From NCBI GenBank assembly GCA_964529285.1, contig CAZGWK010000001.1, forward strand, positions 72,452-136,451: 64,000 nt of DNA, written 5' to 3'. The notes below the pieces were generated by a model. The model saw nothing but the letters and a program-made list of their open reading frames with translations. It was not told the DNA's origin and did not search any database. Of the stretch, positions 1,369-60,851 are shown piece after piece. The position numbers were made by a program, and so were the translations under genes. Numbering within the stretch: position 1 is the stretch's first letter; each line of letters opens with the position of its first letter. This DNA is from an uncultured Actinomycetota bacterium (lineage in GTDB: Bacteria > Actinomycetota > Geothermincolia > Geothermincolales > RBG-13-55-18).

Positions 1369-2088
1369 ATGTCCTGCCTGGAGAACATCAGGGGTATCCT
1401 GCCATCCAGCATGCTGGATTGGCCGGGAAAGATATGTTCCGTCCTCTTCCTGGCGGGCTGCAATTTTCGTTGTCCCTACTGCCACAACCCGGAATTGCTC
1501 AAAGTGGGAAGTAGCGAAGACAATATCGCCTGGGAGGGCATCGAGCATTATCTGGCAGAACGCAGAGGGTGGATCGACGGGGTCTCGATCACCGGCGGGG
1601 AACCCACCCTGCATGCCGACGTGCCGCTGCTGTGTGAGAGACTGCGGAAATTGGGAATGGCCGTAAAGCTGGACACAAACGGCTCGCATCCGCGCTTGCT
1701 GGCGGAGATATTATCGCAAGGGCTGGTGGACTTCGTGGCCATGGACCTCAAGACCGCCCTGCAGAGATACCCGGAGGTGGTGCGGGCCCCGGTGGATCCT
1801 TCTGCCATCGGGGAGTCTTTAGACATGATCATACGTAGCGGGGTGGAGCATGAGTTCCGCTGCACGTTGGTTCCCGGGCTCGTAGACCTGGACGATCTGG
1901 AATCTCTTGCGCAAAGAGCCGAGGGCGCGAAGGCATTCGTACTACAACAGTTCCGCTCGGACATCACTCTGGACCCCGCCTATACGGGGGCGGAAGGATA
2001 CCCGGAGGCAACCGTGCTCGCATGGGCCAACAAGCTGAACCGGCTCGTACCCACCCAAGTAAGAGGATTGGTGTCCGCCCCGCATTGA
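1369..2088 (+). CDS. nrdG: anaerobic ribonucleotide reductase activating protein (radical SAM)
   Basis: Carries the radical-SAM CNFRCPYCHN cluster motif. The ATG is 1 nt after the upstream stop and lies directly downstream of nrdD. Confidence 0.9.
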   Translation: MSCLENIRGILPSSMLDWPGKICSVLFLAGCNFRCPYCHNPELLKVGSSEDNIAWEGIEHYLAERRGWIDGVSITGGEPTLHADVPLLCERLRKLGMAVKLDTNGSHPRLLAEILSQGLVDFVAMDLKTALQRYPEVVRAPVDPSAIGESLDMIIRSGVEHEFRCTLVPGLVDLDDLESLAQRAEGAKAFVLQQFRSDITLDPAYTGAEGYPEATVLAWANKLNRLVPTQVRGLVSAPH

Positions 2089-30221: not shown

Positions 30222-32723
30222 TCAGCCACCGATTAGATCCATTATTTTTTTAGTATATTCTCCTATGATGCGAGCGGCCCGAGTATCATCTTCAGCCTCG
30301 CAGATGAGATGAAGCGAGGGTTCGTCGGGATCCGGCAGGACGAGTATCCACGTGGTATCGTCAAGAAATACCTTTATCCCGTCTATCAGTTCCAGTCTGC
30401 CGTCATCAACTTCCTCAACCAGCCTGCGCATGATCAGACCCTTGTGGTCCCAGGATGCCGGTATCTCTTCAGAGAGCAGGTGGATATGGGGCAGCCCATC
30501 TACGATCTCGGAAAGCGGCCTTTCTATCACGCTCAAGCTGTCCAGCAGCATCGCGGTGCTCGCCATGGCATCGTAGGTAGGCAGGAAGGAGGGGAAGATG
30601 AAACCCCCGCTGCCGGCTCCCGCGAAGATCACGTCTTTCTGCAAAGAGGCTTTCATGAGATCGCTGCGGCTTACTTTAGTGCGGACAACCTCGTTACCGT
30701 ATTCGGAAGCGATCTTTTCGACCTGCGAGGATATGCTTACCGGCACGGCAATTTTTCCATGATGGCCCGTTTCGCACAACAGCTTCAGAAAAAGTACCAG
30801 GGTTACCTGGGGGTGGATCTGCCGTCCCTGTTCGTCCAGCAGGTACAGCCTCTCTCCCGCATTGTCTATGAGTACGCCGATCTCGGCCTCGGAGCTCTTT
30901 ACAAGGTGCGACAGGTCCCTCAGCGCGGCGTTCAGTTCCTCCTGGCTCAAAGTTACTTTTTTCTCGTCGGTAAAGCTGTTAAGGCTCAAGGCATCGCAGC
31001 CGATCTTTCCGAAGATTGACGGCATGATCATGCTGGCGCTCCCAAAAGCATAATCTACTACAACGCGGAAACGCTTCTGTCGCAAGCGCTCTATGTCGAG
31101 TTGCGCAAGCAGCGAGTTGGAATACATCTCCAGTACGCGGGGAGGAAAGAGTATCGCGCCGATCTCTTCAACGAAAGCTCTCCTGAAATTGGCCTGGAAA
31201 TACACCTTTTCGATATCCCTCTGCCGGGCCTCGGAGATGTCTATGCCCTGCTCGTCGAAGAACCGTATCTCGATGGACTGGGGGTCAAAGGCGGAGATGC
31301 GCACGTCGACGCCGCCCATGGCCCTCTCCGTCCCTATGGCGAAACGGTTGACCGGCGAAGGTGATACCTCGAGGTCGGAAACGTTGACCCCGGTAGCGTT
31401 CAATCCGGTTATAAGCGCTCTCTTTATGGTGCGTGCTGACCGCGAGGCGTCACGCGATGTCACAACGGTCGAATCCATGGGCAGGTTGGAGCCGTATGCC
31501 ATGGCGATCCTCAAAGCCTGTTCGGGGGTTATGTCGATATTCATGATACCGGAGACGGCCTTCTTCCCGAAAAGCGTGCGCAGACCCTTGGATTCCCATA
31601 TGATACTGGTGTTCACCGTTGCGCCTGTCTCCACGGTTTTAAAAGGATATATCTTCACGTCGTGATTAACCAGGACGTTCTCGCCGATAAGGCATTCATC
31701 CCCGATCACGACGCCTTCCTCGAGGCGTACATTACTTTTCAGGTCACAATTCTTTCCGACGACGCAGCCCCTGATATGACATCCCGTACCGATATAGGAG
31801 TTATCGTACACGATAGCGCGGTGGACGAAGGCATCCTGTTTGACGGCTACATTGTGACCCAGGACGGTGTATTCGCGTATAACCGCTCCCCTCTCGACCT
31901 TGCAGTGATCGCCCAGGACGGCGGGGCCTCGCAGTTCCGCTCCTGCCTCTATGTCTACACCCTCCCCCACCCATACCTTCTCCGCCATGCGAAAACCCGG
32001 AGGATCGATGCCCACCTTCTGATCCAGTATGTCCTTATGGGCGGCCGTATATTGCTCGAAGTTGCCGATATCACACCAATAACCGTCCGCAACATATCCG
32101 AAAAGCGGTAACCCTTTTTCCAGCAGGTAAGGAAAAAGCTCCTTAGAGAAATCGAATGAGCGACCTTCGGGGATATATTCGAGCACCTCGGGCTCGAGCA
32201 CATATATACCCGTATTGATGGTGTCGCTGAAGACCTGCCCCCAGTTCGGTTTCTCGAGAAAGCGTTCGATATGTCCGCCCGCATCGGTTACGACTATGCC
32301 GAACTCGAGCGGGTTCTCAGCTCGGATGAGAGTCAGCGTGGCCATGGCGCGGTTGCTGCGATGGAAATCCACGACCTTGTTGAGGTCGATATCGGTGAGC
32401 GCATCGCCGCTGATGACGAGGAAGGTATCGTCGAGATAGCGGGAACTGTTCTTAACGCTGCCGGCCGTGCCTAGTGGCGTGAATTCAGTTGAATATTGCA
32501 TGGAGGCGCCCCATTCGCCGCCGTCGCCGAAGTAATTGCTGATGAGGCTGGGCAGGAACTGGAGAGTAGCTATCATATCTTTGAAACCGTGGCGGATCAG
32601 GAGCTTGACTATGTGCTCCATCATCGGCCGGTTGACCACCGGTAACATGGGTTTGGGTTGATTGCTCGTCAGGGGGCGCAGGCGGGTTCCCTGGCCGCCC
32701 GCCATGATCACGGCTTTCATCAT
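30222..32723 (-). CDS. bifunctional sugar-1-phosphate nucleotidyltransferase (GMPP-like) / phosphomannomutase-phosphoglucomutase
   Basis: The N-terminus is GGQGTRLRPLT plus left-handed beta-helix repeats. The C-terminal half has alpha-D-phosphohexomutase domains. Confidence 0.8.
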   Translation of the reverse strand: MMKAVIMAGGQGTRLRPLTSNQPKPMLPVVNRPMMEHIVKLLIRHGFKDMIATLQFLPSLISNYFGDGGEWGASMQYSTEFTPLGTAGSVKNSSRYLDDTFLVISGDALTDIDLNKVVDFHRSNRAMATLTLIRAENPLEFGIVVTDAGGHIERFLEKPNWGQVFSDTINTGIYVLEPEVLEYIPEGRSFDFSKELFPYLLEKGLPLFGYVADGYWCDIGNFEQYTAAHKDILDQKVGIDPPGFRMAEKVWVGEGVDIEAGAELRGPAVLGDHCKVERGAVIREYTVLGHNVAVKQDAFVHRAIVYDNSYIGTGCHIRGCVVGKNCDLKSNVRLEEGVVIGDECLIGENVLVNHDVKIYPFKTVETGATVNTSIIWESKGLRTLFGKKAVSGIMNIDITPEQALRIAMAYGSNLPMDSTVVTSRDASRSARTIKRALITGLNATGVNVSDLEVSPSPVNRFAIGTERAMGGVDVRISAFDPQSIEIRFFDEQGIDISEARQRDIEKVYFQANFRRAFVEEIGAILFPPRVLEMYSNSLLAQLDIERLRQKRFRVVVDYAFGSASMIMPSIFGKIGCDALSLNSFTDEKKVTLSQEELNAALRDLSHLVKSSEAEIGVLIDNAGERLYLLDEQGRQIHPQVTLVLFLKLLCETGHHGKIAVPVSISSQVEKIASEYGNEVVRTKVSRSDLMKASLQKDVIFAGAGSGGFIFPSFLPTYDAMASTAMLLDSLSVIERPLSEIVDGLPHIHLLSEEIPASWDHKGLIMRRLVEEVDDGRLELIDGIKVFLDDTTWILVLPDPDEPSLHLICEAEDDTRAARIIGEYTKKIMDLIGG

Positions 32724-36886: not shown

Positions 36887-38170
36887 CTATTCCCGCAGGA
36901 AAGGCTCGAAATGGTGCAGGAGGCCCCGCGGTATCTCGGCGGTAAGGTGATATCCTTTCTCGTCCGTAACGAGGTCCCTCACCTGTCCTCTCCGGTAAGC
37001 AAGGGACAGAATCTCGGATTGCTCGTGCGGTATGGTCAGGTGCACTATACGCGACGCATGCAGGGCTGAGGACATCTTATCCAGCAGGCCTTGCAGTCCT
37101 TCCCCCGTAACGGTCGATACGAATATGCCCTGTGGCAGGGCCCGGGCAACCTCGTTCCGTTCTGTTTCCAGCAGCAGGTCGCTCTTGTTTAGGACATAAA
37201 TAGTCGGTATTCCGCCGGCATCCAACTCATCCAGGACACCCTCGACAGCTTCTATCCTGCGAGCGATGTTTGAGGAAGAAGCGTCGATCACGTGCAGGAG
37301 CACGTCCGCTTCCCCGACCTCCTCCAGCGTGGATTTGAAGGCCTCTACGAGCTGGTGGGGAAGGTGATTGATGAATCCAACCGTATCGGTTATCACAGCA
37401 TGTCGGTTTCCGGGAAGTTCGATGCTGCGCGTTATGGGGTCCAGGGTCGAGAACAGTTGGTCTCCTACGAGCGTTCCGGCGTCGGTCAGTGCATTGAGAA
37501 GGGAAGACTTGCCCGCGTTGGTGTAACCGACCAGGGCAAAGGTATGGACATCGCGGCGTTCCCTTCTCTTGCGCTTGACCTTCCTGACGCGCGAAAGGTC
37601 CTCGAGCGAACGGTTCAGGGTCTTGATGCGCATATTTATACGCCTGCGGTCGACCTCCAGCTTGGTCTCGCCCGGGCCCCTTGTACCTATACCTCCTCCC
37701 AGCCTGCTCAATTCTATCCCCCTTCCCGTAAGCCGCGAAAGACCGTAACGCATCTGTGCCATCTCCACCTGTGCCTTGCCTTCCCTGGAGTGGGCATGGA
37801 GCGCAAATATGTCGAGTATAAGAGCCGTGCGGTCGAGAACCTTAAGATCGAGTTCGTTTTCAAGGTTGCGCTGTTGGGATGGAGTAAGCTCCTGGTCAAA
37901 GATGGCCAGATCCGCGTCAGCGCTTGATATGATCTCCCGGAGCTCCGCTATCTTGCCCTTCCCCATCAAGGTGGCGGGATCGGGTCTTTCTCGTACCTGC
38001 AGCAGTGTCCCCACCACTTCGGCGCCCGCGGTCTCCGCCAGGGAGCTCAACTCCTGCAGGCTCTCCTCGGCCGTGGCGGAGGTGACCTCTCCCCAGCGTA
38101 CACCGACCAGGACGGCCCTCTCTTTTTCGCGCAATGCGCCTCCGCCCCCGCCTCTCGCTGTCTCTTGCAT
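36887..38170 (-). CDS. hflX: GTPase HflX
   Basis: Has the HflX N-domain and G1–G4 motifs (GYTNAGKSSLLNAL). Confidence 0.9.
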   Translation of the reverse strand: MQETARGGGGGALREKERAVLVGVRWGEVTSATAEESLQELSSLAETAGAEVVGTLLQVRERPDPATLMGKGKIAELREIISSADADLAIFDQELTPSQQRNLENELDLKVLDRTALILDIFALHAHSREGKAQVEMAQMRYGLSRLTGRGIELSRLGGGIGTRGPGETKLEVDRRRINMRIKTLNRSLEDLSRVRKVKRKRRERRDVHTFALVGYTNAGKSSLLNALTDAGTLVGDQLFSTLDPITRSIELPGNRHAVITDTVGFINHLPHQLVEAFKSTLEEVGEADVLLHVIDASSSNIARRIEAVEGVLDELDAGGIPTIYVLNKSDLLLETERNEVARALPQGIFVSTVTGEGLQGLLDKMSSALHASRIVHLTIPHEQSEILSLAYRRGQVRDLVTDEKGYHLTAEIPRGLLHHFEPFLRE

Positions 38171-38248
38171 ATCAATTCACGGTCGCGGATATTCGTATCT
38201 GCGTGGTTGCGACGTGAGCAAAGGTCCTGCCTGGGGTTGCTGGAGCAT

Positions 38249-39409
38249 TCAGGAGAAAGCCTCCTTGATACGTTCTACTCCCTCCAACAGACGTTGATCG
38301 CATAAGGTGAGGGAGAAACGGACATAGCCCTCACCAGAGGAACCATACGCGGATCCAGGAGCAACCACCACGCCCGCCTTATCGAGGAGCTCAGTGGTGA
38401 AGCTCTGAGAATCGTGACCGGGTGGGACTTTCATCCATACGTACAGGGTCGCCCTGGGAACGGAAACCTGCCATCCGATGGAACGCAGCGCCTCCAGAAG
38501 GGTATCTCTGCGGCGTTCGTAGGCAGCATTGTTGTCGCGGATGCAGTCCTGAGGACCCTCCATCGCGGCGACCGCAGCCAGTTGTATGGCGTTGAAGACC
38601 CCGGAATCGATGTTTTCTTTCACTTTAGCGAAGGGAGCGATTATTTTCTCGCCTCCTATCGCGAACCCGACTCGCCATCCGGTCATGTTGTAGGTCTTTG
38701 AGAGAGAGTGGAACTCGACCGCGGTCTCCCGGGCTCCAGTTACTTCCAGCAGCGAGGGGGCCATATACCCGTCGAAAGTTATCTCTGAATAGGCATGATC
38801 GTGTGCCAGCATGACTTCGTGCTTGCGAGCGTAGTAAACCAGTTCCTCGAAGAAAGACTTGTCAGCAACTGCAGCCGTCGGGTTATTGGGGTAGTTTACG
38901 AAAAGGATCTTTGCCTTGCGCCAGATCTCTTCCCGTATGGCCGCTAGATCGGGCAGAAAGCCATTATCCTCGCGCAAGGGCATCTCCACCGCTGATGCGC
39001 CACAGAGCATTGTTGCCGTACGGTACACCGGGTATGCCGGGTTGGGGATGAGTGCAACGTCTCCCGGGTCCAGGAATGCCAGGGGAAAATGAGCGATGCC
39101 TTCCTTGGAGCCGATGAGAGCGAGAACTTCCCGGTCCGGGTCGGGGGTAACGCCGAAACGGCCGTTCACCCAGGATGCCGCAGCCTCCCGGAAACGCTGC
39201 ATCCCCTGATAGGAGGGGTAGCGGTGGTTGGCGGGCTCGCAAGCTTCCGCGCACAGTGCCGCAACGATGTGCGCCGGCGTGGGAAGATCCGGATCGCCGA
39301 CACCGAAGTTGATGATATCCAGTCCCTGACGCACCTTCTCCTCGATACGACGGTCAATCTCGGCGAAGAGGTAGGGCGGTAGTTCACGGATGCGTTTCGA
39401 GATCTTCAA
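38249..39409 (-). CDS. dapL: LL-diaminopimelate aminotransferase (class I PLP aminotransferase)
   Basis: The N-terminus LPPYLFAEIDRR…INFGVGDPDLPTP is characteristic of DapL. It is adjacent to dapF. Confidence 0.75.
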   Translation of the reverse strand: MKISKRIRELPPYLFAEIDRRIEEKVRQGLDIINFGVGDPDLPTPAHIVAALCAEACEPANHRYPSYQGMQRFREAAASWVNGRFGVTPDPDREVLALIGSKEGIAHFPLAFLDPGDVALIPNPAYPVYRTATMLCGASAVEMPLREDNGFLPDLAAIREEIWRKAKILFVNYPNNPTAAVADKSFFEELVYYARKHEVMLAHDHAYSEITFDGYMAPSLLEVTGARETAVEFHSLSKTYNMTGWRVGFAIGGEKIIAPFAKVKENIDSGVFNAIQLAAVAAMEGPQDCIRDNNAAYERRRDTLLEALRSIGWQVSVPRATLYVWMKVPPGHDSQSFTTELLDKAGVVVAPGSAYGSSGEGYVRFSLTLCDQRLLEGVERIKEAFS

Positions 39410-39449
39410 GGGCTCTCCTCTCCCATGCGCTAAGCATTGCCCGGCGACT

Positions 39450-40298
39450 TCATATACGCCATCCTTTTGCGAGTTCGCCGCTGAAAACTTCCAGCGCCGG
39501 CCCGGTCATGAGTACGTGCCCATATTCGTCTGCGCTTATCTTCAGGACGCCTCCGGGCAGGCTTACATCTACGGGGTTGGTGCACCTGCCTTCGTGCAGG
39601 GCCGCTACCGCCGCCGCGCATGCACCCGTTCCGCAGGCCTTCGTCTCCCCCACCCCGCGCTCCCATACCCTTAGAGCAATGTGGTGGGCGTCCAGCACCT
39701 GCACGAACTCCACATTGGTACGGTTGGGGAACATTGTGTGCTTTTCGAGTACGGGGCCGACGCGGGATACCTGAGTTTCCGATACGTCCTCTACAAACAC
39801 TACACAGTGGGGGTTGCCCACGGAAAGGCAAATGGCCTGGATAACCGCGTCTCCATCGATATCAATGGTTACCCTGCCGGGGCTGGAAGGATCGTCCGGC
39901 GCCGGCAGGTCAAGCGCCGTGAATCCGGGAAGGCCCATGTCCACTTCCACTTCCTTCACAATACCGCCCGAGACCGAGAGGCGTAAGGATTTTGTGCCGG
40001 CCAAGGTCTCTATAAACATATTCGTGCGCACAACTCCCGATCTCTCGTAAAGATACTTGGCGAGGCAGCGTATGCCGTTTCCGCACATCTCTGCCTCGCT
40101 TCCGTCCGCATTGAAGATACGCATGGCGGCGTCGCTGCCCGCCGATGTCAGCGCGAAGATCACTCCGTCCGCGCCTATTCCCGTATGTCGCTCGCATACC
40201 GCTTCCACTTCCTGGGGGGAGAGAAAAACCCCCTCCTTCATCCCATCGAGGATGATGAAGTCGTTACCCGTTCCCTGGTACTTGTGGAAGCGCACCAT
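39450..40298 (-). CDS. dapF: diaminopimelate epimerase
   Basis: Has the GTGNDFI motif and two catalytic Cys residues (MCGNGIRC, ACGTGACA). Confidence 0.9.
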   Translation of the reverse strand: MVRFHKYQGTGNDFIILDGMKEGVFLSPQEVEAVCERHTGIGADGVIFALTSAGSDAAMRIFNADGSEAEMCGNGIRCLAKYLYERSGVVRTNMFIETLAGTKSLRLSVSGGIVKEVEVDMGLPGFTALDLPAPDDPSSPGRVTIDIDGDAVIQAICLSVGNPHCVVFVEDVSETQVSRVGPVLEKHTMFPNRTNVEFVQVLDAHHIALRVWERGVGETKACGTGACAAAVAALHEGRCTNPVDVSLPGGVLKISADEYGHVLMTGPALEVFSGELAKGWRI

Positions 40299-40423: not shown

Positions 40424-41377
40424 CTATAACGAACCTGCCAGGCAGAACCTTACCAGATCCACCACGCGCCTCGACGGACCCTCAAGCTCGTTTTCCTCGA
40501 GCTCGATCCAGCGCAGTCCGGGGATGCGCCTGAACCAAGTTAGCTGCCGCTTGGAGTAGTTGCGCGACCTCCGCTTGATATTAAAGATAGTTTCCTCGAG
40601 GGGTATACCTCTGTCAAGGTGGTCCAGGATCTCCTTGTATCCCAGGGCCTGCCTCGCCGTGCCGGATAGCCTGCCCTCGGACGCCAGGCGCGCAACCTCC
40701 TCGACCAACCCGGCCGCCAGCATATCGTCTACGCGGCGTTCTATGGCGCGGTATAATGCCTCGCGAGGCGCGTTGAGCACAACTCCCGCAAAGGGATAGA
40801 ACAACTCCTGCTCTCCCCTCTTGCGCTGAAATGACGTGTAGGGTATACCGGTGCGCTCGTATACCTCCATGGCCCGCACGACACGGCGCATATTGGCGAA
40901 TCCCTCACTTGCAGCGAAACCCGGGTCCACTCGCTCAAGGCGCCTGCGCATGCCGTCCGCATCCCGTTCGGCTTCTTGCTGCAATCTGCGTCTCAATACA
41001 TCACGCGTCGATCCCGGAGGAAAACGCATATCGAAAACCACGGCCTCGAAATAGAGGCCCGTCCCACCCACGAGCAAAGGTACTCTTCCCCGTGACGCGA
41101 TATCCTCGACATGCCGACGCGCTTCTTCCTGATACCTGGCGACTGAGAAGACGCTGCAGGCGTCCACTATGTCCAACATATGATGAGGCACGTCCCGCCT
41201 TGCATCTACCCCGGGTTTTGCGGTACCGATGTCCATACCGCGATAGACCTGCATGGAGTCAACGGAGATTATCTCCGCACGCAAGGAAGGTGCTACGGCC
41301 AGCGCGACGGCGCTCTTGCCTACGGCGGTCGGTCCGAGAACCGCCGCCACCCTAACCCTGTTGCGGGGAACAGGCAT
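40424..41377 (-). CDS. miaA: tRNA dimethylallyltransferase
   Basis: Has the P-loop GPTAVGKS and MiaA core motifs. Confidence 0.9.
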   Translation of the reverse strand: MPVPRNRVRVAAVLGPTAVGKSAVALAVAPSLRAEIISVDSMQVYRGMDIGTAKPGVDARRDVPHHMLDIVDACSVFSVARYQEEARRHVEDIASRGRVPLLVGGTGLYFEAVVFDMRFPPGSTRDVLRRRLQQEAERDADGMRRRLERVDPGFAASEGFANMRRVVRAMEVYERTGIPYTSFQRKRGEQELFYPFAGVVLNAPREALYRAIERRVDDMLAAGLVEEVARLASEGRLSGTARQALGYKEILDHLDRGIPLEETIFNIKRRSRNYSKRQLTWFRRIPGLRWIELEENELEGPSRRVVDLVRFCLAGSL

Positions 41378-41383
41378 GTGGCC

Positions 41384-41923
41384 TCAGTGGAATCTTTGCA
41401 CGGTGAAGCGGTAGAGCTGTATTGGTTCGTGAGGGCTGATACCGGCCTTGCTGCGCGCTATCTCGAGCTGTTCCTCCACGCTGCCTACTCCCTCCAGGTC
41501 CGGAAGCAAAAGACCGCTACGGGTCCCCCTCTTGACGATCACGCCATAGTGGCGCGGATCCAATTGCGAGGCGTCACGCACAAGCTCCGGCTCGCTGAGT
41601 ACGTCAACGCTGATTTCAAGATCGTTCAGCTCCTCTTCAGAAAGCGCAGGGAAGCGCGGGTCTCGACTCGCTGCACTTATGGCGTTGGAGGCGATCTCCT
41701 CGGCAAGGGTTTCCCGTGTCGGTTGAAAGGTACCGATGCATCCCCGCAGTGCGTCCTGCTTTTTAAGGGTAACGAACACTGCGGCTTTCCCTCGAAGCTG
41801 CCGCTTTTCCTCTCTCATTTCCGCGGGAGTAAGCTCTCTTCTTTCTCTTACCCACTTCTCAATCGCCTTGCGCGCCAAGCGGGAATGCTTGCTTGTTTCC
41901 TTGTGCCCATGGGTCTCGGTCAT
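41384..41923 (-). CDS. AMMECR1-domain protein (AmmeMemoRadiSam system protein A-like)
   Basis: Has LRGCIGT and the LLPDLEG motif. Confidence 0.8.
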   Translation of the reverse strand: MTETHGHKETSKHSRLARKAIEKWVRERRELTPAEMREEKRQLRGKAAVFVTLKKQDALRGCIGTFQPTRETLAEEIASNAISAASRDPRFPALSEEELNDLEISVDVLSEPELVRDASQLDPRHYGVIVKRGTRSGLLLPDLEGVGSVEEQLEIARSKAGISPHEPIQLYRFTVQRFH

Positions 41924-41936
41924 AGATCGGTCCTCC

Positions 41937-42755
41937 TTAGCCTTTCCTGAGCATCAGCGCTACCAGATATCCCACGCCGAAGGGGCCTTCATAAGAGACC
42001 ACCGAACTCGCGAGAGTTCCGTTCTTCAGAGCGCCCCACATGGCGTGGATGGAGCGAAAGCCGCACTCGCCTGCTTCAGCGACGAGATCATCGGGGATTC
42101 CGTACAATGCTGCGAAATCGCCACCGCGTGCTATATCCACGATCCTGCGGTCGAATTCCTCTCCGCGCGGGCTGTAGCCGGCGGGAGCTCCCCTGCTAAG
42201 GCGGTGCGAAAGGTCTCCACTGGCTACGAAGACCGCCTTTCGTCCCAGTTCTTCACATGCTGCGCGGGATGTTTGCCCAAGACGGAAATGGTCTTCGTAC
42301 GAGAGGCCGGATATGGACAGGCATACGATCGGTGTCTCAAAAACCTGGTCCATATAATACAGTGGCACCAGGAGCCCGTGATCGAGCTCCTCTCCCGAAG
42401 GGGCATCATGCGTTGCGATCAGCGGCAGATCAGCGGATTTCGCATTTTCGACCATGGCGGCGGCAAGTTCGACATCGTTATGTTTAGAGATGCGCACCTG
42501 CGGCTTTCCAAAGGAGGCAAAGCTCCCACCCAGTACCGGCGCAGACTTGACGATAAAGGCGTCTCTGTAAGGTGGGGTATGAGGCGAGATCATCACCATT
42601 GTGTCCGCTTCGAGGCCTGCAAGCTTACGGCTTAATTCCTGCATCGCCTTATAGGTGGCGCTCACGACCTCGCGTTCCTTGCCGCCGATCTCCGGGATCA
42701 GCAACGGCGGATGGGGCACTATACAACCCGCGATAATCCCTTTCTCCGCTCCCAC
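41937..42755 (-). CDS. LigB/Memo-superfamily (class III extradiol dioxygenase subunit B-like) protein, AmmeMemoRadiSam protein B-like
   Basis: The N-terminus IIAGCIVPHPPLLIPEIGG and His-containing motifs resemble AMMECR1-associated protein B. Confidence 0.65.
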   Translation of the reverse strand: MGAEKGIIAGCIVPHPPLLIPEIGGKEREVVSATYKAMQELSRKLAGLEADTMVMISPHTPPYRDAFIVKSAPVLGGSFASFGKPQVRISKHNDVELAAAMVENAKSADLPLIATHDAPSGEELDHGLLVPLYYMDQVFETPIVCLSISGLSYEDHFRLGQTSRAACEELGRKAVFVASGDLSHRLSRGAPAGYSPRGEEFDRRIVDIARGGDFAALYGIPDDLVAEAGECGFRSIHAMWGALKNGTLASSVVSYEGPFGVGYLVALMLRKG

Positions 42756-42875
42756 GCGATCACCTCCATGCCGGCTGCCTTATGCACCGTCTGCTTTCGT
42801 TCCACATAAACTCCAATGGTTATAGGATACCCAAGTCGCCAATTAGAAAAACACCTGTTTGAATACGGCGTTCAT

Positions 42876-44222
42876 TCAAGCGATAATCTCCTCCAGCTCG
42901 CCCAGGAGACTCCAGTTGCCCGCAGCGGTAATCCTTACGCGTGCGAAGGTTGCGGTGAGATCGATATCGTTGCACTCGAAATGGACGAGCTTATTGTTGC
43001 GCGTACGGGCAGCCCAGCGGTGCTTGTCTCTGCGGCTGTATCCCTGCACGAGCACGGTCTTCTCGCTGCCGATTTCGGCGCGCAGACTTTCCCGGGTCAG
43101 TCTTCTGGTGGCTTCCATCAGCCTCTGCAACCGCTCGTGCTTCACACCTTCGGGGACCTCGTCTGGAAGGCCGGCTGCGGAAGCCATGTCGCGACGATTA
43201 TACAGGAAGGTAAAAGCCGCATCGAAAGCGCATGATTCGACCATCTCCATAGTAGCCGCGAAATCCTCTTCGGACTCGCCCGGAAAGCCTACCATGAGGT
43301 CCGTAGTCAGCGATACTCCCGGTACTCTATTCCGCAGCTCGGCAGCTTTTTCACGGTATTCTGCACGACTGTAGCCACGGTTCATGGCGGTCAGTATGCG
43401 GTCTGACCCGGCTTGCAATGGAAGGTGTACGTGTTCGCAGACATTTCCCGTGTCCACGATGGATCGTACTATGTCGAGGTCGAAATCGCGAGGATGAGAA
43501 GTGGTAAAACGTATCCAGGGTTCCGGGTACCGGTCGCCCAGCAGACGCAGCAGGTCCGCGAAGCGGCTCTTCCCCTCTTCTTTGCGACGGTAGGAATTCA
43601 CGTTCTGTCCCAGCAGATTTATCTCCTTTACGCCTGTGGCGACATGCAGGCCCACCTCTTCCGCTATGTCATGCGCTGAACGACTCTCCTCCCTGCCGCG
43701 TACGTAAGGGACGATGCAATAGGAGCAGAAATTGTCGCATCCATGCGTGATGGTAACCCACGCCCGGAAATGCTCGAAGCGGTAGCACGGGATGCCCGAT
43801 ATATCAAGACCTCTCAATGCGGTCGAGCATACTCCTCCCGTTTCCGCCTGCTGCAGCAGGCTCGAGATATTCGCATACTGGTGGGTGCCGAACACCACGT
43901 CAACATAGGGCGCTTTCTCTCTCAGCCGGACGCCTTCCTTCTGCGCCAGGCACCCTCCCACGGCTATCAGCGTTCCCCGTTCTTCTTTTAATGGCTTCAG
44001 AGAAGAAAGGCGCCCATAGAATCTCTGCTCCGCACTCTCGCGCACGCAGCAGGTAAGAAAGATCACGACATCCGCCTCGTCTGCTTCGCTCTCCCTCCAA
44101 CCATCCACATGCAAGAGTCCCCGCAAGCGCTCGGCGTCGTGGATGTTCATCTGACATCCGAAGGTTATCAGGGCATATTTTCCGGCGTTTCTACAAACCG
44201 GGACAGGCTTTTTATCGGACAT
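42876..44222 (-). CDS. miaB: tRNA-2-methylthio-N6-dimethylallyladenosine synthase (radical SAM methylthiotransferase)
   Basis: Has the UPF0004 domain (ITFGCQMN), a radical-SAM CDNFCSYC cluster and a TRAM domain. The start was taken at MSDKK. Confidence 0.9.
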   Translation of the reverse strand: MSDKKPVPVCRNAGKYALITFGCQMNIHDAERLRGLLHVDGWRESEADEADVVIFLTCCVRESAEQRFYGRLSSLKPLKEERGTLIAVGGCLAQKEGVRLREKAPYVDVVFGTHQYANISSLLQQAETGGVCSTALRGLDISGIPCYRFEHFRAWVTITHGCDNFCSYCIVPYVRGREESRSAHDIAEEVGLHVATGVKEINLLGQNVNSYRRKEEGKSRFADLLRLLGDRYPEPWIRFTTSHPRDFDLDIVRSIVDTGNVCEHVHLPLQAGSDRILTAMNRGYSRAEYREKAAELRNRVPGVSLTTDLMVGFPGESEEDFAATMEMVESCAFDAAFTFLYNRRDMASAAGLPDEVPEGVKHERLQRLMEATRRLTRESLRAEIGSEKTVLVQGYSRRDKHRWAARTRNNKLVHFECNDIDLTATFARVRITAAGNWSLLGELEEIIA

Positions 44223-44324
44223 TATAGGTTCACCAAACCCGAGCAGGAAACGGCATCTTTCCATACTTGCTATTGTAATGGTTCTGCGGCGATAAATACG
44301 GGACCTGGCGTCAGAGAGCGAATC

Positions 44325-45038
44325 TCAAGCGAAATTAACTCTACAGAACTCTAGACTGCGCCGGAGATTATTCACTATGCGCTCTCTTCCCAGGCGCGCT
44401 TCCAGGGGACCTGGACCGAGCTCAAGAGCGATCTTGCCGTCAAATCCATCGCGGTACAGCAGAGCGAGGAAACGATCGAGCGGCAGGCGTCCTTCGAAAG
44501 GCAGGGCATGATCGTCAAAACCCTTCATGTAGTTATTCGATAGGTGTATGTGCCGCACGTGGTTGCGCAGTTCCTCCCACGCCCTGAATATATTGATCTT
44601 GGCGATAGCATAGTGACTGGTGTCGAAAACCAGGTTGTCGAAACATCGTATATCGTGCAGCGAGTTGAACAGGCTGAGATTCAGCGGCCGGTACAGGTAG
44701 ACGTGCATGGCGTTCTCCATGGCTACGACGACGCCACTGTCTCGGTCGTAGTCGTTGAGGTTTCGCCTGACCCAACGCGCATAATCCCACTGCCAGAAAT
44801 ATGGAAGATGGATAACGACAAGGCCTGCGTCAAGTTGGCGAGCCATGGCTACGGAGGTAGCGATTTTTTCCTGGGGACCGCCCCAGACTTTTCTTGCGGC
44901 CATGAGAAAGGGGGCGTGTATGCTCCTTACGGCGATATCCGCCTGGCGAGCCAGTTCTCGCACCAGAGACGCATTTTGTGTTTCCTCGCGTCTGGTGACC
45001 ATCAGCTCGACACCGCCGAACCCGGCGTCGCGTGCCAT
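44325..45038 (-). CDS. sugar phosphate isomerase/epimerase (xylose-isomerase-like TIM barrel)
   Basis: Shows AP endonuclease 2 / xylose isomerase-like barrel motifs. The call is weak. Confidence 0.55.
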   Translation of the reverse strand: MARDAGFGGVELMVTRREETQNASLVRELARQADIAVRSIHAPFLMAARKVWGGPQEKIATSVAMARQLDAGLVVIHLPYFWQWDYARWVRRNLNDYDRDSGVVVAMENAMHVYLYRPLNLSLFNSLHDIRCFDNLVFDTSHYAIAKINIFRAWEELRNHVRHIHLSNNYMKGFDDHALPFEGRLPLDRFLALLYRDGFDGKIALELGPGPLEARLGRERIVNNLRRSLEFCRVNFA

Positions 45039-45103
45039 ACTGAAAACATCGCGCAGCTCGAAGTTATAAAGCGATGCGGTCGAGAGGATAAATTCAGTTA
45101 TGT

Positions 45104-45508
45104 CTATTTCCTCCCTCTTGACCTTCTGCCCCGCCGTGAAATCCTGTTCGCTACGCCGCGAAAAAGAAGGGTTGTGGTTGCGAATCCTGCCAGCATCCCG
45201 CCGCAGCGGGCTATGGGAGAGCGGAGAGCATCATCTACGGTGCGCAGGCTCGATTCGGTGAGTTCGAGCATCGCCTGCGCCTCTCCAGTCATCTCGCCTA
45301 CTCTTTCCAGCTCGCCGTTCACTTCTTCAACGGTCTGGTTGAGGTTGGAGAGGAGCATGATAAGCTCAGGCCTGGCATCGTCGAGGGTACGGTTGAGGTG
45401 ATCGACGCCACGGCTGATCTTCAGGACGATGCGAATGAGAAAGAAGGTCAGAAGCGGGACGGAGATGATCGCGATTATCAGGAATATGATCTTGAGCGCG
45501 TTCATCAT
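45104..45508 (-). CDS. DUF948-like membrane protein
   Basis: An N-terminal TM helix is followed by a coiled-coil. Confidence 0.5.
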   Translation of the reverse strand: MMNALKIIFLIIAIISVPLLTFFLIRIVLKISRGVDHLNRTLDDARPELIMLLSNLNQTVEEVNGELERVGEMTGEAQAMLELTESSLRTVDDALRSPIARCGGMLAGFATTTLLFRGVANRISRRGRRSRGRK

Positions 45509-45576
45509 GCCTCCTTGCCCCGTGGATAGACAGCTTGCGCCGGTCGCTGTTCATGCAGCGGGTGACTTTTGGCTAC

Positions 45577-45837
45577 CTATCTCGATTCCACGGAGAGCTT
45601 GATAGCCGTCCTCTCCTCTCCATCGATGATTATATCCGTAAAAGCGGGTATGCATACCAGGTCTATGCCGCTGGGGGCAACGAATCCTCTTGCTATGGCG
45701 ATCGCCTTAACCGCCTGGTTCAAGGCACCGGCTCCGATAACCTGCATCTCCGCGCTCCCCGTCTCGCGCAGAACCCCTGCCAGTGCTCCAGCGACGGAAT
45801 TGGGGTTTGACTTCGAAGATACCTTAAGCACTTCCAT
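45577..45837 (-). CDS. spoVS: stage V sporulation protein S
   Basis: MEVLKVSSKSNPNSVAGALAGVLRE…AIGAGALNQAVKAIAIARGF is near-identical to the SpoVS consensus. Confidence 0.85.
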   Translation of the reverse strand: MEVLKVSSKSNPNSVAGALAGVLRETGSAEMQVIGAGALNQAVKAIAIARGFVAPSGIDLVCIPAFTDIIIDGEERTAIKLSVESR

Positions 45838-46050
45838 CTCTAAATGCTCCTCCCCTTGTCTGTTTCCTGCTACGATGACCAACATCCCCGGATAAAATCT
45901 AATGATATATTATCCCGATCCTTTATTAAAGAGATGCCAGGCGCGCGCAATATGAGGGCGTTTCAGCTCGCAGATAATCCACCCTGTCGATATCTTGAAA
46001 GGTCACACGCAGCGCTTCAAAGATGCGGGATATGTACCTGAAGGTGACGC

Positions 46051-47166
46051 CTATTCGTCCTCCCTCTCGTGCAGGCCCATGGATATGATGATGCGGTCCC
46101 TACGCCGTTTTACCACGGGCATTTCGGCCTGAAGGTAATTCCTCCTGCCGATATCTTCAAAGGCTGTCCGCAGCGACTCACAGATGCGGGATATATCTTC
46201 CTGGCTCAACCGCCTTGCCAGGTGGTCACTCCAGTTTACGCGAGGCTGACGGTGTAGATCCGCCCGTCTCGCCGGAAGGGTGACACCATCTTCTTTGAGC
46301 AGTTCGTTTATGCTCATCAGCGGGTTTATCTCCATCTCCAGGATGCGAAATGCATTCCGCTCGGATATGCTCAGTCCGAGCTCGCCGGCACAGTAACCAT
46401 GAAGCGTGCGCCCTTCTTTGATGCTTCCCAGTTCAAACCATATCGGTCTGCTTAAATCGTTCTCGCCGGCTGACCACGATTTAAGCAGCTGCATGGAATC
46501 GTGATAGAGAGTAGCGAGGATCTCGGCATTGGATCCCAGGAATATTTTCAATTCGTCGGAGACCAGTGCGAACTCACTGAGGACCCTCGGCACGTTACGC
46601 GGCCCCCCCGCGATGGCGATAGCACCCTTCTCGTCACACTCGAACCTGGGAAAAGTAGACTGATCTTTCTTCTCGGGTATCTTTGTCGTGTCTATACGCG
46701 CGTGGATTATGCTGCCCCGGCCCTCCTCCGAACGTAAAAGCTCTATATCGTCCGCCACCTTCTTGATGGAAAATAGGGCCATCCCTCGGCCGTGGACACC
46801 GAAACGGTCCTCCACGAGGTCCTCGACCTTGGACGTAACCCTTGCCTCGAATATCTTGCGGTGAAGCGCGCGCGGTATTCCCCTCCCGTCATCCAGAACG
46901 GCAATATTGCGCCAGCGCCCTTTCTCCTTCTGAAAGGTTACATATACGTTTCTGGCGCCGGCATCCCGTGCATTTCGCACCAGTTCTTTTACTACGTCTT
47001 CCACACAACGTATATCCTGAAGTGCCTGGCGCCTCTCGGCCTCGCTCACCCTCAGTCTTACGTATCCGTGGCCAAGTTCCTCTTCTACCGTGAAGGTATC
47101 CTGATCCGCGAAACTGCGCACGAATTCCAGGAGTCCTCCCGCATCTCCAGTGTTCTCGGTGGTCAA
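46051..47166 (-). CDS. GHKL-type ATPase-domain protein (HATPase_c without an His-kinase dimerisation domain) plus a C-terminal domain of unknown function
   Basis: Has the N-box ELVRNARDAG, G1 DDGRGIP and G2 GVHGRGMAL. Confidence 0.6.
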   Translation of the reverse strand: MTTENTGDAGGLLEFVRSFADQDTFTVEEELGHGYVRLRVSEAERRQALQDIRCVEDVVKELVRNARDAGARNVYVTFQKEKGRWRNIAVLDDGRGIPRALHRKIFEARVTSKVEDLVEDRFGVHGRGMALFSIKKVADDIELLRSEEGRGSIIHARIDTTKIPEKKDQSTFPRFECDEKGAIAIAGGPRNVPRVLSEFALVSDELKIFLGSNAEILATLYHDSMQLLKSWSAGENDLSRPIWFELGSIKEGRTLHGYCAGELGLSISERNAFRILEMEINPLMSINELLKEDGVTLPARRADLHRQPRVNWSDHLARRLSQEDISRICESLRTAFEDIGRRNYLQAEMPVVKRRRDRIIISMGLHEREDE

Positions 47167-60622: not shown

Positions 60623-60851
60623 ACATCATATCAAACGTTAGGGACGGGAAGGGCGGGCGTGCCGCGCAGGCAGCAGTCGCTGCAAGAGTATCGCGCCGGG
60701 GGCCGCAGGGCGCGTCCCGCGGGTGCAGGCAGTACCCGGACATTGTAGGATGATGTTATAAGGACCTTCATTTGTGACGTAAGGACGTATATGCCGGCTC
60801 CGTCTCTGCGGGGCCGAAGACAAGCGACATGCAACGGGGAGAAGCAGTCTT

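What the first reader, a model, noticed from the sequence alone, without database searches (positions are those of the whole stretch)
41384..44222. AMMECR1 + LigB/Memo pair embedded between miaB and miaA, with MiaB as the only adjacent radical SAM
Canonical AmmeMemoRadiSam loci encode AMMECR1, a Memo/LigB-like protein and a dedicated PflA-like radical SAM enzyme. Here the two non-radical-SAM partners are co-directional and tightly packed (gaps of 13 and 120 bp) between miaB (a radical SAM methylthiotransferase) and miaA. Elsewhere in this window the miaB…miaA–dapF–hflX order follows a conserved actinobacterial arrangement. This places a system of unknown function squarely in a tRNA i6A/ms2i6A modification operon. 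It raises the hypothesis that AMMECR1/Memo proteins act on tRNA or in Fe-S/radical-SAM-dependent modification.
Basis: partly seen in the sequence, partly recalled or inferred. Interest (0 to 1): 0.5.

Follow-up and report, generated by a model that had tools for sequence, protein, structure and literature searches.

The report
Split LigB–AMMECR1 enzyme between miaB and miaA
Two genes of unknown function, one for an iron-enzyme-like LigB protein and one for an AMMECR1 protein, sit between two tRNA-modification genes in this anaerobic actinobacterium and its relatives; this gives a real but weak, single-lineage hint about what this conserved, disease-linked protein family does.

Summary
On the minus strand the order is miaB (42876-44264), a LigB-fold gene (41937-42755), an AMMECR1 gene (41384-41923) and miaA (40424-41377), with gaps of 120, 13 and 6 bp. 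dapF, an LL-DAP aminotransferase and hflX follow.

- **What the pair is.** It is the split form of a LigB–AMMECR1 protein that is usually fused. In 52 of 63 loci from other lineages, that protein lies next to the dedicated AmmeMemoRadiSam radical SAM enzyme (TIGR04337).
- **The B partner.** It is LigB-type, not Memo-type.
- **How far the arrangement extends.** 17 further loci show the same placement between miaB and miaA, split or fused. Sixteen are labelled Actinomycetota, spanning several classes; one short contig is labelled Deltaproteobacteria. None has TIGR04337 within 8 kb, and neither does this 64-kb window.
- **How strong the tRNA link is.** No locus outside that group has miaA or miaB nearby. 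The same conserved cluster also carries unrelated genes (dapF, dapL). The tRNA link therefore rests on probably one ancestral event.
- **Prior work.** RNA-base modification by AMMECR1 was already predicted in 2007.
- **Still open.** I could not test whether these genomes encode the radical SAM partner elsewhere.

Verdict: a real, conserved context variant of a known orphan system. It is a useful experimental lead, not evidence of function.

The parts
42876..44264 (-). miaB, the tRNA ms2i6A37 methylthiotransferase. The true start is probably 44222 or 44264.
   Evidence: TIGR01574 432.9 bits (cutoff 355.3); PF00919 + PF04055 + PF01938. CDNFCSYC motif. The 424-aa gene call on the Logan contigs would remove the first Cys of the N-terminal cluster (FGCQMN).
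42756..42875 (-). 120-bp miaB–LigB spacer with a weak hairpin plus U-run and a -10-like GGGTATCCTATAAC motif. It may be an internal terminator and promoter.
   Evidence: The motifs are conserved in L003, L004 and L006. The hairpin appears in the fold, but the energy z-score is not significant. The consensus scan did not flag it, and there is no Rfam match. Low confidence.
41937..42755 (-). LigB-fold subunit (class III extradiol-dioxygenase-like), the 'B-position' partner of AMMECR1. GTG start with a GGAGGTGA ribosome-binding site.
   Evidence: PF02900 135.3 bits; TIGR04336 21 bits, below its cutoff of 26. AlphaFold2 model with pLDDT 94. TM-score 0.80-0.84 to TK2203, aminophenol dioxygenase and HPCD, but 0.55 to MEMO1. 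H15, H59, D125, H184, E230, C231 and R234 are conserved across 81 homologues.
41384..41923 (-). AMMECR1 subunit, named by NCBIfam as AmmeMemoRadiSam system protein A.
   Evidence: PF01871 167.1 bits; TIGR04335 147.3 bits (cutoff 99). RGCIG (C62) and DPRF (D88, R90, F91) motifs are intact and conserved. Closest solved chains are 1zq7 and 1vaj.
40424..41377 (-). miaA, the tRNA A37 dimethylallyltransferase. It starts 6 bp after the AMMECR1 stop.
   Evidence: TIGR00174 271.5 bits. It is adjacent to the pair in every related miaB/miaA-linked locus whose contig extends that far.
36887..40298 (-). dapF, LL-diaminopimelate aminotransferase and hflX: the downstream part of the same conserved cluster, with no functional relation to tRNA A37.
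   Evidence: TIGR00652 310.8 bits, NF006756 608.7 bits and TIGR03156 460.6 bits. The same order is seen in the related loci.
1369..2088 (+). nrdG, the anaerobic ribonucleotide reductase activase. It is the only other radical SAM gene in the window, is not part of the system, and marks the organism as an anaerobe.
   Evidence: TIGR02495 203 bits, next to NrdD. It is the only hit of the TIGR04337-type HMM, at 31.7 bits.

Best explanation
**What it is (shown).** The two genes encode the two halves of one bipartite enzyme.
- One half is a LigB-fold subunit. By alignment it keeps a 2-His-1-Glu metal site (H15, H59, E230) and the catalytic His (H184).
- The other half is an AMMECR1 subunit with its conserved Cys cleft (RGCxG, DxRF).
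- In most other bacteria sampled, the two are a single fused protein of 440-480 aa. That protein is encoded directly beside the PflA/NrdG-like radical SAM enzyme TIGR04337.
- In anaerobic Actinomycetota the module lies between miaB and miaA, either split or fused. It is usually translationally coupled to both. It sits inside the housekeeping cluster recA–recX–rny–…–miaB–[LigB–AMMECR1]–miaA–dapF–dapL–hflX.

**How it got there (inferred).** One ancestral relocation into this cluster is the simplest account.

**How it works (inferred).**
- The module does the same chemistry here as in radical-SAM-linked lineages, because every conserved residue is the same in both.
- It is a metal-dependent enzyme that does not depend on O2, because the host is an anaerobe.
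- The AMMECR1 cleft holds the substrate. This is most plausibly a nucleoside in RNA, as predicted in 2007.
- Its radical SAM partner is encoded elsewhere in the genome, or is dispensable. MiaB is not that partner.
- The position between miaB and miaA mainly reflects co-expression with genes for maturation of the translation apparatus. It is a lead toward tRNA, not proof.
For: - **Identity:** family scores; fold; metal-site and catalytic residues aligned to HPCD 8iq8 and conserved.
- **The two act together:** they are fused in 60 of the 82 loci classified, including 4 miaB/miaA-linked ones (L008, L017, L038, L080).
- **Partner in other lineages:** 52 of 63 non-miaB loci have a co-directional radical SAM gene, 43 of them within 80 bp. 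Two representatives score 322.9 and 342.6 bits on TIGR04337, cutoff 220.
- **Conserved context:** 17 genome loci plus L088 show miaB–LigB–AMMECR1–miaA–dapF–dapL–hflX. Outside the window's own group, intergenic distances are mostly between -16 and +30 bp.
- **Same chemistry in both contexts:** no conserved residue is lost in the miaB-linked set compared with the rest.
- **Radical SAM adjacency is not obligatory elsewhere:** an Acidobacteriota group has the fusion beside gyrB–recF with no radical SAM gene nearby.
- **Anaerobe:** NrdDG is present.
- **Not a recent insertion:** GC content matches the surroundings.
- **RNA-substrate prediction:** Balaji & Aravind 2007, PMC2034487.
Against: - No experimental function exists for any member. 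Six of my eight literature searches concerned AMMECR1, Memo or AmmeMemoRadiSam, and none found one.
- I could not determine whether miaB-linked genomes encode TIGR04337 elsewhere. Contig lengths in the hit lists showed no radical SAM hit and miaB-linked LigB hit on the same contig. That check is weak.
- Single origin is not supported by the gene tree. Bootstrap support for a miaB-linked clade is 7/100 for the LigB domain and 4/100 for the concatenated domains.
- Tight translational coupling to both miaB and miaA across deeply diverged classes (LigB identity only about 41-50%) could reflect a real functional tie that I am under-weighting.
Confidence: 0.5

Rival explanations
1. A37-pathway enzyme. 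The LigB/AMMECR1 module acts on tRNA position 37 together with MiaA and MiaB. It might, for example, further modify the isopentenyl or methylthio-isopentenyl adenosine without O2, as an anaerobic counterpart to MiaE-type hydroxylation.
For: - Operon-level coupling to both miaB and miaA is conserved across several actinobacterial classes.
- The dedicated radical SAM gene is absent from all 19 miaB-linked loci but present in 52 of 63 others.
- AMMECR1 was predicted to be an RNA-base-modifying enzyme.
Against: - The association is seen in one group only. None of the 63 other loci has miaA or miaB within 8 kb.
- Neighbours elsewhere are unrelated housekeeping genes: an amidase, CdaA–YbbR–GlmM and gyrB–recF.
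- dapF and dapL are just as conserved in the same cluster.
- The catalytic residues are identical in both contexts, so the substrate is probably the same in all lineages.
- From general knowledge, AMMECR1 is near-universal in Archaea, which lack MiaA and i6A.
Confidence: 0.15
2. MiaB has replaced the dedicated radical SAM enzyme as the radical-generating partner of LigB/AMMECR1 in these Actinomycetota.
For: MiaB is the only radical SAM gene near the pair in the window and in the related loci. In other actinobacterial loci (for example L084) the dedicated radical SAM gene occupies the same position, immediately upstream of LigB.
Against: - MiaB is a canonical equivalog-level MiaB.
- It shows no similarity to the TIGR04337-type enzymes. 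The TIGR04337-type HMM does not hit it, and those enzymes hit NrdG rather than MiaB.
- L007 keeps LigB–AMMECR1–miaA with phosphoglucomutase-type genes upstream in place of miaB.
- In the window's own group, a 120-220 bp spacer with terminator-like and promoter-like motifs separates miaB from LigB.
Confidence: 0.05
3. Pure positional hitch-hiking. The module has no RNA-related role and acts on a small molecule, a lipid or isoprenoid, or a protein. It simply landed in, and was inherited with, a very stable housekeeping gene cluster.
For: - The cluster mixes unrelated functions: recA, rny, miaB, miaA, dapF, dapL and hflX.
- The association is confined to one group.
- The neighbours of the family elsewhere are heterogeneous.
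- The partner radical SAM enzyme is PflA-like, a class that typically acts on proteins.
Against: Overlapping stop and start codons with miaB and miaA in many lineages show that co-transcription is maintained. The AMMECR1 fold is related to nucleic-acid-binding RAGNYA domains.
Confidence: 0.27
4. A genuine aromatic ring-cleaving extradiol dioxygenase involved in catabolism.
For: Best Pfam hit is PF02900, and the structural neighbours are aminophenol and homoprotocatechuate dioxygenases. The metal triad and catalytic His are retained.
Against: - All dioxygenase equivalog models score far below their cutoffs, for example HpaD_Fe at 59.8 against 315.95.
- The host is an anaerobe.
- There are no catabolic neighbours.
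- The domain is obligatorily paired or fused with AMMECR1.
Confidence: 0.03

Closest known systems
AmmeMemoRadiSam system (NCBIfam TIGR04335 A / TIGR04336 B / TIGR04337 radical SAM)
   Same: The AMMECR1 protein passes TIGR04335. Fused homologues of the pair sit directly beside TIGR04337 enzymes in most other lineages. The function is unknown in both cases.
   Different: The B component is LigB-type and fails TIGR04336. No TIGR04337 gene lies in the 64-kb window or within 8 kb in any miaB-linked locus. The pair is embedded between miaB and miaA.
Fused LigB–AMMECR1 proteins of Bacillota and Chloroflexota (for example L009 and L021), encoded next to TIGR04337
   Same: Both domains are homologous to the window's two proteins (about 40-45% identity in the LigB domain), with the same conserved residues.
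   Different: Here the two domains are separate genes 13 bp apart, and the genomic context differs.
Class III extradiol dioxygenases (LigB/PCAD clade: LigAB, aminophenol 1,6-dioxygenase, HPCD; TK2203, PDB 5hee)
   Same: Same fold (TM-score 0.75-0.84). By alignment, the 2-His-1-carboxylate site and the catalytic His are retained.
   Different: Sequence identity is only 15-26%. The protein has its own invariant features (D125, C231, R234, C-terminal SYEGPFGVGY). It is partnered with AMMECR1, lives in an anaerobe, and has no catabolic context.
MEMO1 / Memo family (PF01875)
   Same: Same superfamily. Memo is the canonical partner of AMMECR1 in AmmeMemoRadiSam loci. Here a conserved Cys sits immediately after the metal-site Glu; a metal-site Cys (C244) is also named in the MEMO1 structure entry 7m8h, but I did not test whether the two align.
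   Different: TM-score is only about 0.55. There is no PF01875 hit, and TIGR04336 is below its cutoff.
Actinobacterial miaB … miaA–dapF–hflX conserved gene cluster
   Same: Same gene order as in the related loci retrieved here.
   Different: The content of the miaB–miaA interval in other actinobacteria, such as Mycobacterium and Streptomyces, is recalled from memory as different and was not tested here.

Membership tests
AmmeMemoRadiSam system | AMMECR1-family protein above the TIGR04335 cutoff | tested here: met
   147.3 bits against a cutoff of 99.
AmmeMemoRadiSam system | Memo-family protein B above the TIGR04336 cutoff | tested here: not met
   21.0 bits against a cutoff of 26. No PF01875 hit. 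TM-score 0.55 to MEMO1. No second LigB/Memo-like ORF in the window, using a LigB-family HMM that may miss true Memo.
AmmeMemoRadiSam system | Dedicated TIGR04337 radical SAM gene encoded with A and B | tested here: not met
   None in the 64-kb window. None within 8 kb in 19 miaB-linked loci. The rest of the genome could not be searched with these tools.
AmmeMemoRadiSam system | Orthologues of the A/B pair associated with TIGR04337 in other genomes | tested here: met
   52 of 63 other loci. Representatives score 322.9 and 342.6 bits against a cutoff of 220.
AMMECR1 (PF01871) | RGCxG and DxR[aromatic] active-site motifs | tested here: met
   LRGCIG (C62) and DPRF (D88-F91). Conserved at 90% or more in 78 sequences. 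The motifs are defined in PMC2034487.
Class III extradiol dioxygenase (LigB, PF02900) | LigB/PCAD fold | tested here: met
   PF02900 135.3 bits. AlphaFold2 pLDDT 94 and TM-score 0.80-0.84 to solved members.
Class III extradiol dioxygenase (LigB, PF02900) | 2-His-1-carboxylate Fe(II) site plus catalytic His | tested here: met
   H15, H59, E230 and H184 align with the THVP, DSHW, GEGG and SGSLSHR motifs of HPCD 8iq8 and are conserved. This rests on alignment only. Metal binding was not tested.
Class III extradiol dioxygenase (LigB, PF02900) | O2-dependent cleavage of a catecholic or aminophenolic ring | not testable with these tools
   All equivalog models score far below their cutoffs. The host is an anaerobe.
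MiaB (TIGR01574) | UPF0004 + radical SAM + TRAM architecture and an equivalog-level score | tested here: met
   432.9 bits against a cutoff of 355.3; all three domains present.
MiaA (TIGR00174) | IPPT domain and an equivalog-level score | tested here: met
   271.5 bits against a cutoff of 148.65.

The most novel reading that the evidence does not exclude
In anaerobic Actinomycetota the LigB/AMMECR1 module is a true third or fourth enzyme of the tRNA A37 i6A/ms2i6A pathway. It would make a so-far-undescribed, O2-independent derivative of (ms2)i6A, possibly using MiaB chemistry in place of the dedicated radical SAM enzyme. That would give the first biochemical function for the AMMECR1 and Memo/LigB partner families.
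Probability: 0.12. Interest if true: 0.85.

Novelty: new variant of a known kind. Interest (0 to 1): 0.4.

Why it matters
- **An orphan family with disease links.** AMMECR1 is conserved in all three domains of life, and its human gene is tied to the AMME/Xq22.3 deletion syndrome. Together with its Memo/LigB partners it still has no known biochemical function in the literature I could search.
- **A concrete experiment.** A stable operon that places the module between miaB and miaA in a whole bacterial phylum suggests profiling tRNA nucleosides in mutants. It also defines a natural variant with no linked radical SAM gene to compare against the canonical three-gene loci.
- **Limits.** The evidence is guilt by association from what is probably one evolutionary event, and the general hypothesis of RNA base modification is already published.

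Tried and rejected
1. **Radical SAM partner in the window.** I looked for a dedicated radical SAM gene with a motif scan and a custom HMM. Only NrdG and MiaB turned up.
2. **Radical SAM partner elsewhere in the genome.** A homologue search with an actinobacterial TIGR04337 sequence returned only relatives at 71% identity or above. Every long-contig case I inspected carried its own LigB and AMMECR1 copies. Comparing contig lengths between the radical SAM and miaB-linked LigB hit lists gave no overlap. The question stays unresolved.
3. **Single origin from the gene tree.** The first NJ tree showed a miaB-linked clade, but bootstrap support is 7/100 and 4/100. I do not rely on the tree.
4. **Shared PHP-domain neighbour.** PHP genes lie upstream of miaB in some miaB-linked loci and upstream of the radical SAM gene in L084-type loci. 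I checked whether this marks a common ancestral locus. They share only a weak N-terminal PHP motif, 33% identity over 98 aa, so I rejected the idea.
5. **Regulatory RNA in the region.** Rfam gave no match. The consensus scan found no terminator in the miaB–LigB gap. The hairpin there is not energetically significant.
6. **Literature.** I found no experimental function for AMMECR1 or AmmeMemoRadiSam. Burroughs et al. 2019 (JBC 294:10211) is not held. From memory, its abstract links the Memo clade to 'nucleotide base and aliphatic isoprenoid modification'. It may already mention this context; I could not verify that.
Full report
**1. Observation**

The minus strand between 36.9 and 44.3 kb carries seven genes in a row:
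- miaB, 42876-44264: TIGR01574 432.9 bits; UPF0004 + Radical_SAM + TRAM.
- A 272-aa LigB-fold gene, 41937-42755: PF02900 135.3 bits.
- A 179-aa AMMECR1 gene, 41384-41923: PF01871 167.1 bits; TIGR04335 147.3 bits against a cutoff of 99.
- miaA, 40424-41377: TIGR00174 271.5 bits.
- dapF, an LL-diaminopimelate aminotransferase, and hflX.

LigB, AMMECR1 and miaA each have a Shine-Dalgarno-like sequence upstream. GC content matches the surroundings.

The only other radical SAM gene in the 64 kb is NrdG at 1369-2088, beside NrdD. An HMM built from 32 TIGR04337-type proteins hits nothing else in the six-frame translation. The rest of the window is core housekeeping: uvrC, rapZ, whiA, gap, pgk, metK, fmt, rsmB, recA, recX and rny.

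The closest named relatives of the LigB protein come from Candidatus Solincola, Geothermincolales and other Actinomycetota MAGs. NrdDG marks the organism as an anaerobe.

**2. What the two proteins are**

*AMMECR1.* This is a standard family member. The RGCIG and DPRF motifs that Balaji & Aravind proposed as the active site are intact. The nearest solved structures are the archaeal AMMECR1 homologues 1zq7 and 1vaj.

*The partner protein.* It is LigB-type, not Memo-type.
- It has no PF01875 hit, and TIGR04336 scores 21 bits, below its cutoff of 26.
- A confident AlphaFold2 model (pLDDT 94, pTM 0.93) superposes on class III extradiol dioxygenases and on TK2203 with TM-scores of 0.80-0.84. Against MEMO1 it reaches only about 0.55.
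- Profile alignment to homoprotocatechuate dioxygenase 8iq8 places H15, H59 and E230 on the 2-His-1-carboxylate positions, and H184 on the catalytic His.
- These residues, with D125, C231, R234 and a C-terminal SYEGPFGVGY hairpin, are conserved at 90% or more across 81 homologues.
- All dioxygenase equivalog models score far below their cutoffs, and the host is an anaerobe. Literal aromatic ring cleavage is therefore unlikely.

**3. Comparative genomics**

A scan of one genome per species with the LigB alignment found at least 590 loci, of which the best 80 were kept. I annotated them with phmmer and clustering.

*The miaB-linked group.*
- Seventeen loci have the LigB/AMMECR1 module beside miaA and/or miaB. 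Twelve of them show the whole order miaB–LigB–AMMECR1–miaA–dapF–dapL–hflX; most of the rest are cut by contig ends.
- Sixteen come from several actinobacterial classes: Geothermincolia-like, Thermoleophilia, Coriobacteriia, 'Actinomycetes' and Subteraquimicrobium.
- One is a 3-kb contig binned as Deltaproteobacteria.
- In four of them (L008, L017, L038, L080) LigB and AMMECR1 are fused.
- An independently gene-called 1.84-Mb contig shows rimO–pgsA–cinA–ligT–recA–recX–rny–miaB–LigB–AMMECR1–miaA–dapF–dapL–hflX.
- Intergenic distances are mostly between -16 and +30 bp, so the genes are translationally coupled. In the window's own group the miaB–LigB gap is wider, 120-220 bp.
- None of these loci has a TIGR04337-type gene within 8 kb.

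*The other 63 loci* (Bacillota, Chloroflexota, Armatimonadota, Acidobacteriota, some Actinomycetota and others).
- Nearly all encode a fused LigB–AMMECR1 protein of 440-480 aa.
- 52 have a co-directional radical SAM gene of about 330 aa, 43 of them within 80 bp.
- Two representatives score 322.9 and 342.6 bits on TIGR04337, cutoff 220.
- None has miaA or miaB nearby.
- Their other neighbours are assorted housekeeping genes: a CwlD-like amidase, CdaA–YbbR–GlmM and gyrB–recF.
- A second actinobacterial lineage has PHP–TIGR04337–LigB–AMMECR1–DUF2267.

**4. What follows**

- The fusions show that the two window genes act as one enzyme.
- Their homologues are genuine components of AmmeMemoRadiSam-type loci, with a LigB-type B component.
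- The miaB/miaA embedding is real and old, but confined to one group.
- Conserved residues are identical in miaB-linked and radical-SAM-linked proteins, so the chemistry is probably the same in both.
- MiaB is an ordinary MiaB and is unrelated to the PflA/NrdG-like TIGR04337 enzymes. L007 keeps LigB–AMMECR1–miaA without miaB.
- In the window's own group the miaB–LigB spacer holds a weak hairpin with a U-run and a conserved -10-like motif. The tighter unit may therefore be LigB–AMMECR1–miaA.
- The cluster also contains dapF and dapL, which have nothing to do with tRNA A37. Position in this cluster is weak evidence of shared function.
- Single origin is the parsimonious reading of an identical seven-gene order within one phylum. 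The gene tree does not resolve it: the NJ tree shows a clade, but bootstrap support is only 7/100 and 4/100.

**5. Unresolved**

I could not search whole genomes, so I cannot say whether miaB-linked genomes encode TIGR04337 elsewhere.
- A homologue search with an actinobacterial TIGR04337 sequence returned only close relatives, and those I inspected have their own A/B copies.
- Contig lengths in the radical SAM and miaB-linked LigB hit lists do not coincide. This is weak negative evidence.
- The Acidobacteriota group shows that the fusion gene can be unlinked from its radical SAM gene in other lineages too.

**6. Literature**

- Balaji & Aravind (2007, PMC2034487) described the neighbourhood of AMMECR1 with a radical SAM enzyme and a ring-opening dioxygenase, noted the fusions, and predicted an uncharacterised RNA base modification.
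- Burroughs et al. 2019 is cited for 'Memo-Ammecr1 systems' but is not held. From memory, its abstract links the Memo clade to nucleotide-base and aliphatic-isoprenoid modification, so this context may already have been noted there.
- Six of my eight literature searches targeted AMMECR1, Memo or AmmeMemoRadiSam, and none found an experimental function.

**7. Verdict**

The locus is a split context variant of a known but uncharacterised system, with no linked radical SAM gene, conserved in anaerobic Actinomycetota.

My estimates:
- About 0.5 for the main reading: a bipartite metal enzyme of the AmmeMemoRadiSam type, whose partner is encoded elsewhere or is dispensable, and whose position reflects co-expression.
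- About 0.27 for pure hitch-hiking with a non-RNA substrate.
- About 0.15 for a true A37-pathway role.
- About 0.05 for MiaB as a surrogate partner.

Interest is moderate at 0.4. It is a good, cheap experimental lead on a long-standing orphan family, but it is associative, comes from one lineage, and the general hypothesis is not new.

Noticed in passing
window 42756-42875 (-); L003, L004, L006 equivalents: The miaB–LigB spacer contains a weak hairpin followed by a U-run (…GGUGUUUUUCU) and then a conserved GGGTATCCTATAAC (-10-like) motif. Both are shared by three of the four closest relatives aligned. In this lineage LigB–AMMECR1–miaA may be transcribed separately from miaB. The fold energy is not significant.
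   Followed up: partly
window 44150-44264 (-): The gene call for miaB on the matching Logan contigs (424 aa, start at window 44150) would delete the first cysteine of the N-terminal Fe-S cluster (FGCQMN). The real start is probably the ATG at 44222 or 44264. Neither has an obvious Shine-Dalgarno sequence.
   Followed up: partly
L083, L086, L087 (also L084, L068, L070): A second actinobacterial lineage has PHP-domain gene – TIGR04337 radical SAM – LigB – AMMECR1 – DUF2267. In three of the loci a convergent RtcB RNA ligase and Archease lie immediately downstream. This is a possible but weak RNA-repair neighbourhood.
   Followed up: partly
L042, L049, L057, L063, L081: An Acidobacteriota group carries the fused LigB–AMMECR1 gene beside gyrB–recF, near the replication-origin region, and has no radical SAM gene within 8 kb. 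It is another lineage where the module is not linked to a radical SAM gene.
   Followed up: partly
window 41937-41990 (-), LigB residues 254-263: The C-terminal β-hairpin motif SYEGPFGVGY is conserved at 90% or more across the 81 LigB-domain sequences, whatever the context. Its role is unexplained. It sits just before the linker to AMMECR1 in the fused forms.
   Followed up: no
window 44325-47166 (-): Upstream of miaB lie a xylose-isomerase-like TIM-barrel gene (AP_endonuc_2), a DUF948 gene, SpoVS and a 371-aa protein with a MutL-like HATPase_c domain. The HATPase gene is also conserved upstream in Coriobacteriia and other miaB-linked loci. In several of those a PHP-domain gene replaces the TIM-barrel gene.
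   Followed up: no
window 30222-32723 (-); L007 3816-6356: An 833-aa fusion of a nucleotidyltransferase/hexapeptide domain with a phosphoglucomutase domain occurs in the window. A similar fusion lies directly upstream of LigB in L007, where miaB is missing.
   Followed up: no
window 60768-62030 (-) / 60852-62720 (+): A 420-aa minus-strand ORF with no Pfam match overlaps a 622-aa plus-strand ORF. I did not determine which one is the real gene.
   Followed up: no
L029: A 3.2-kb contig binned as 'Deltaproteobacteria' carries an actinobacterial-type miaB–LigB junction. It is probably a binning error rather than an independent occurrence.
   Followed up: no
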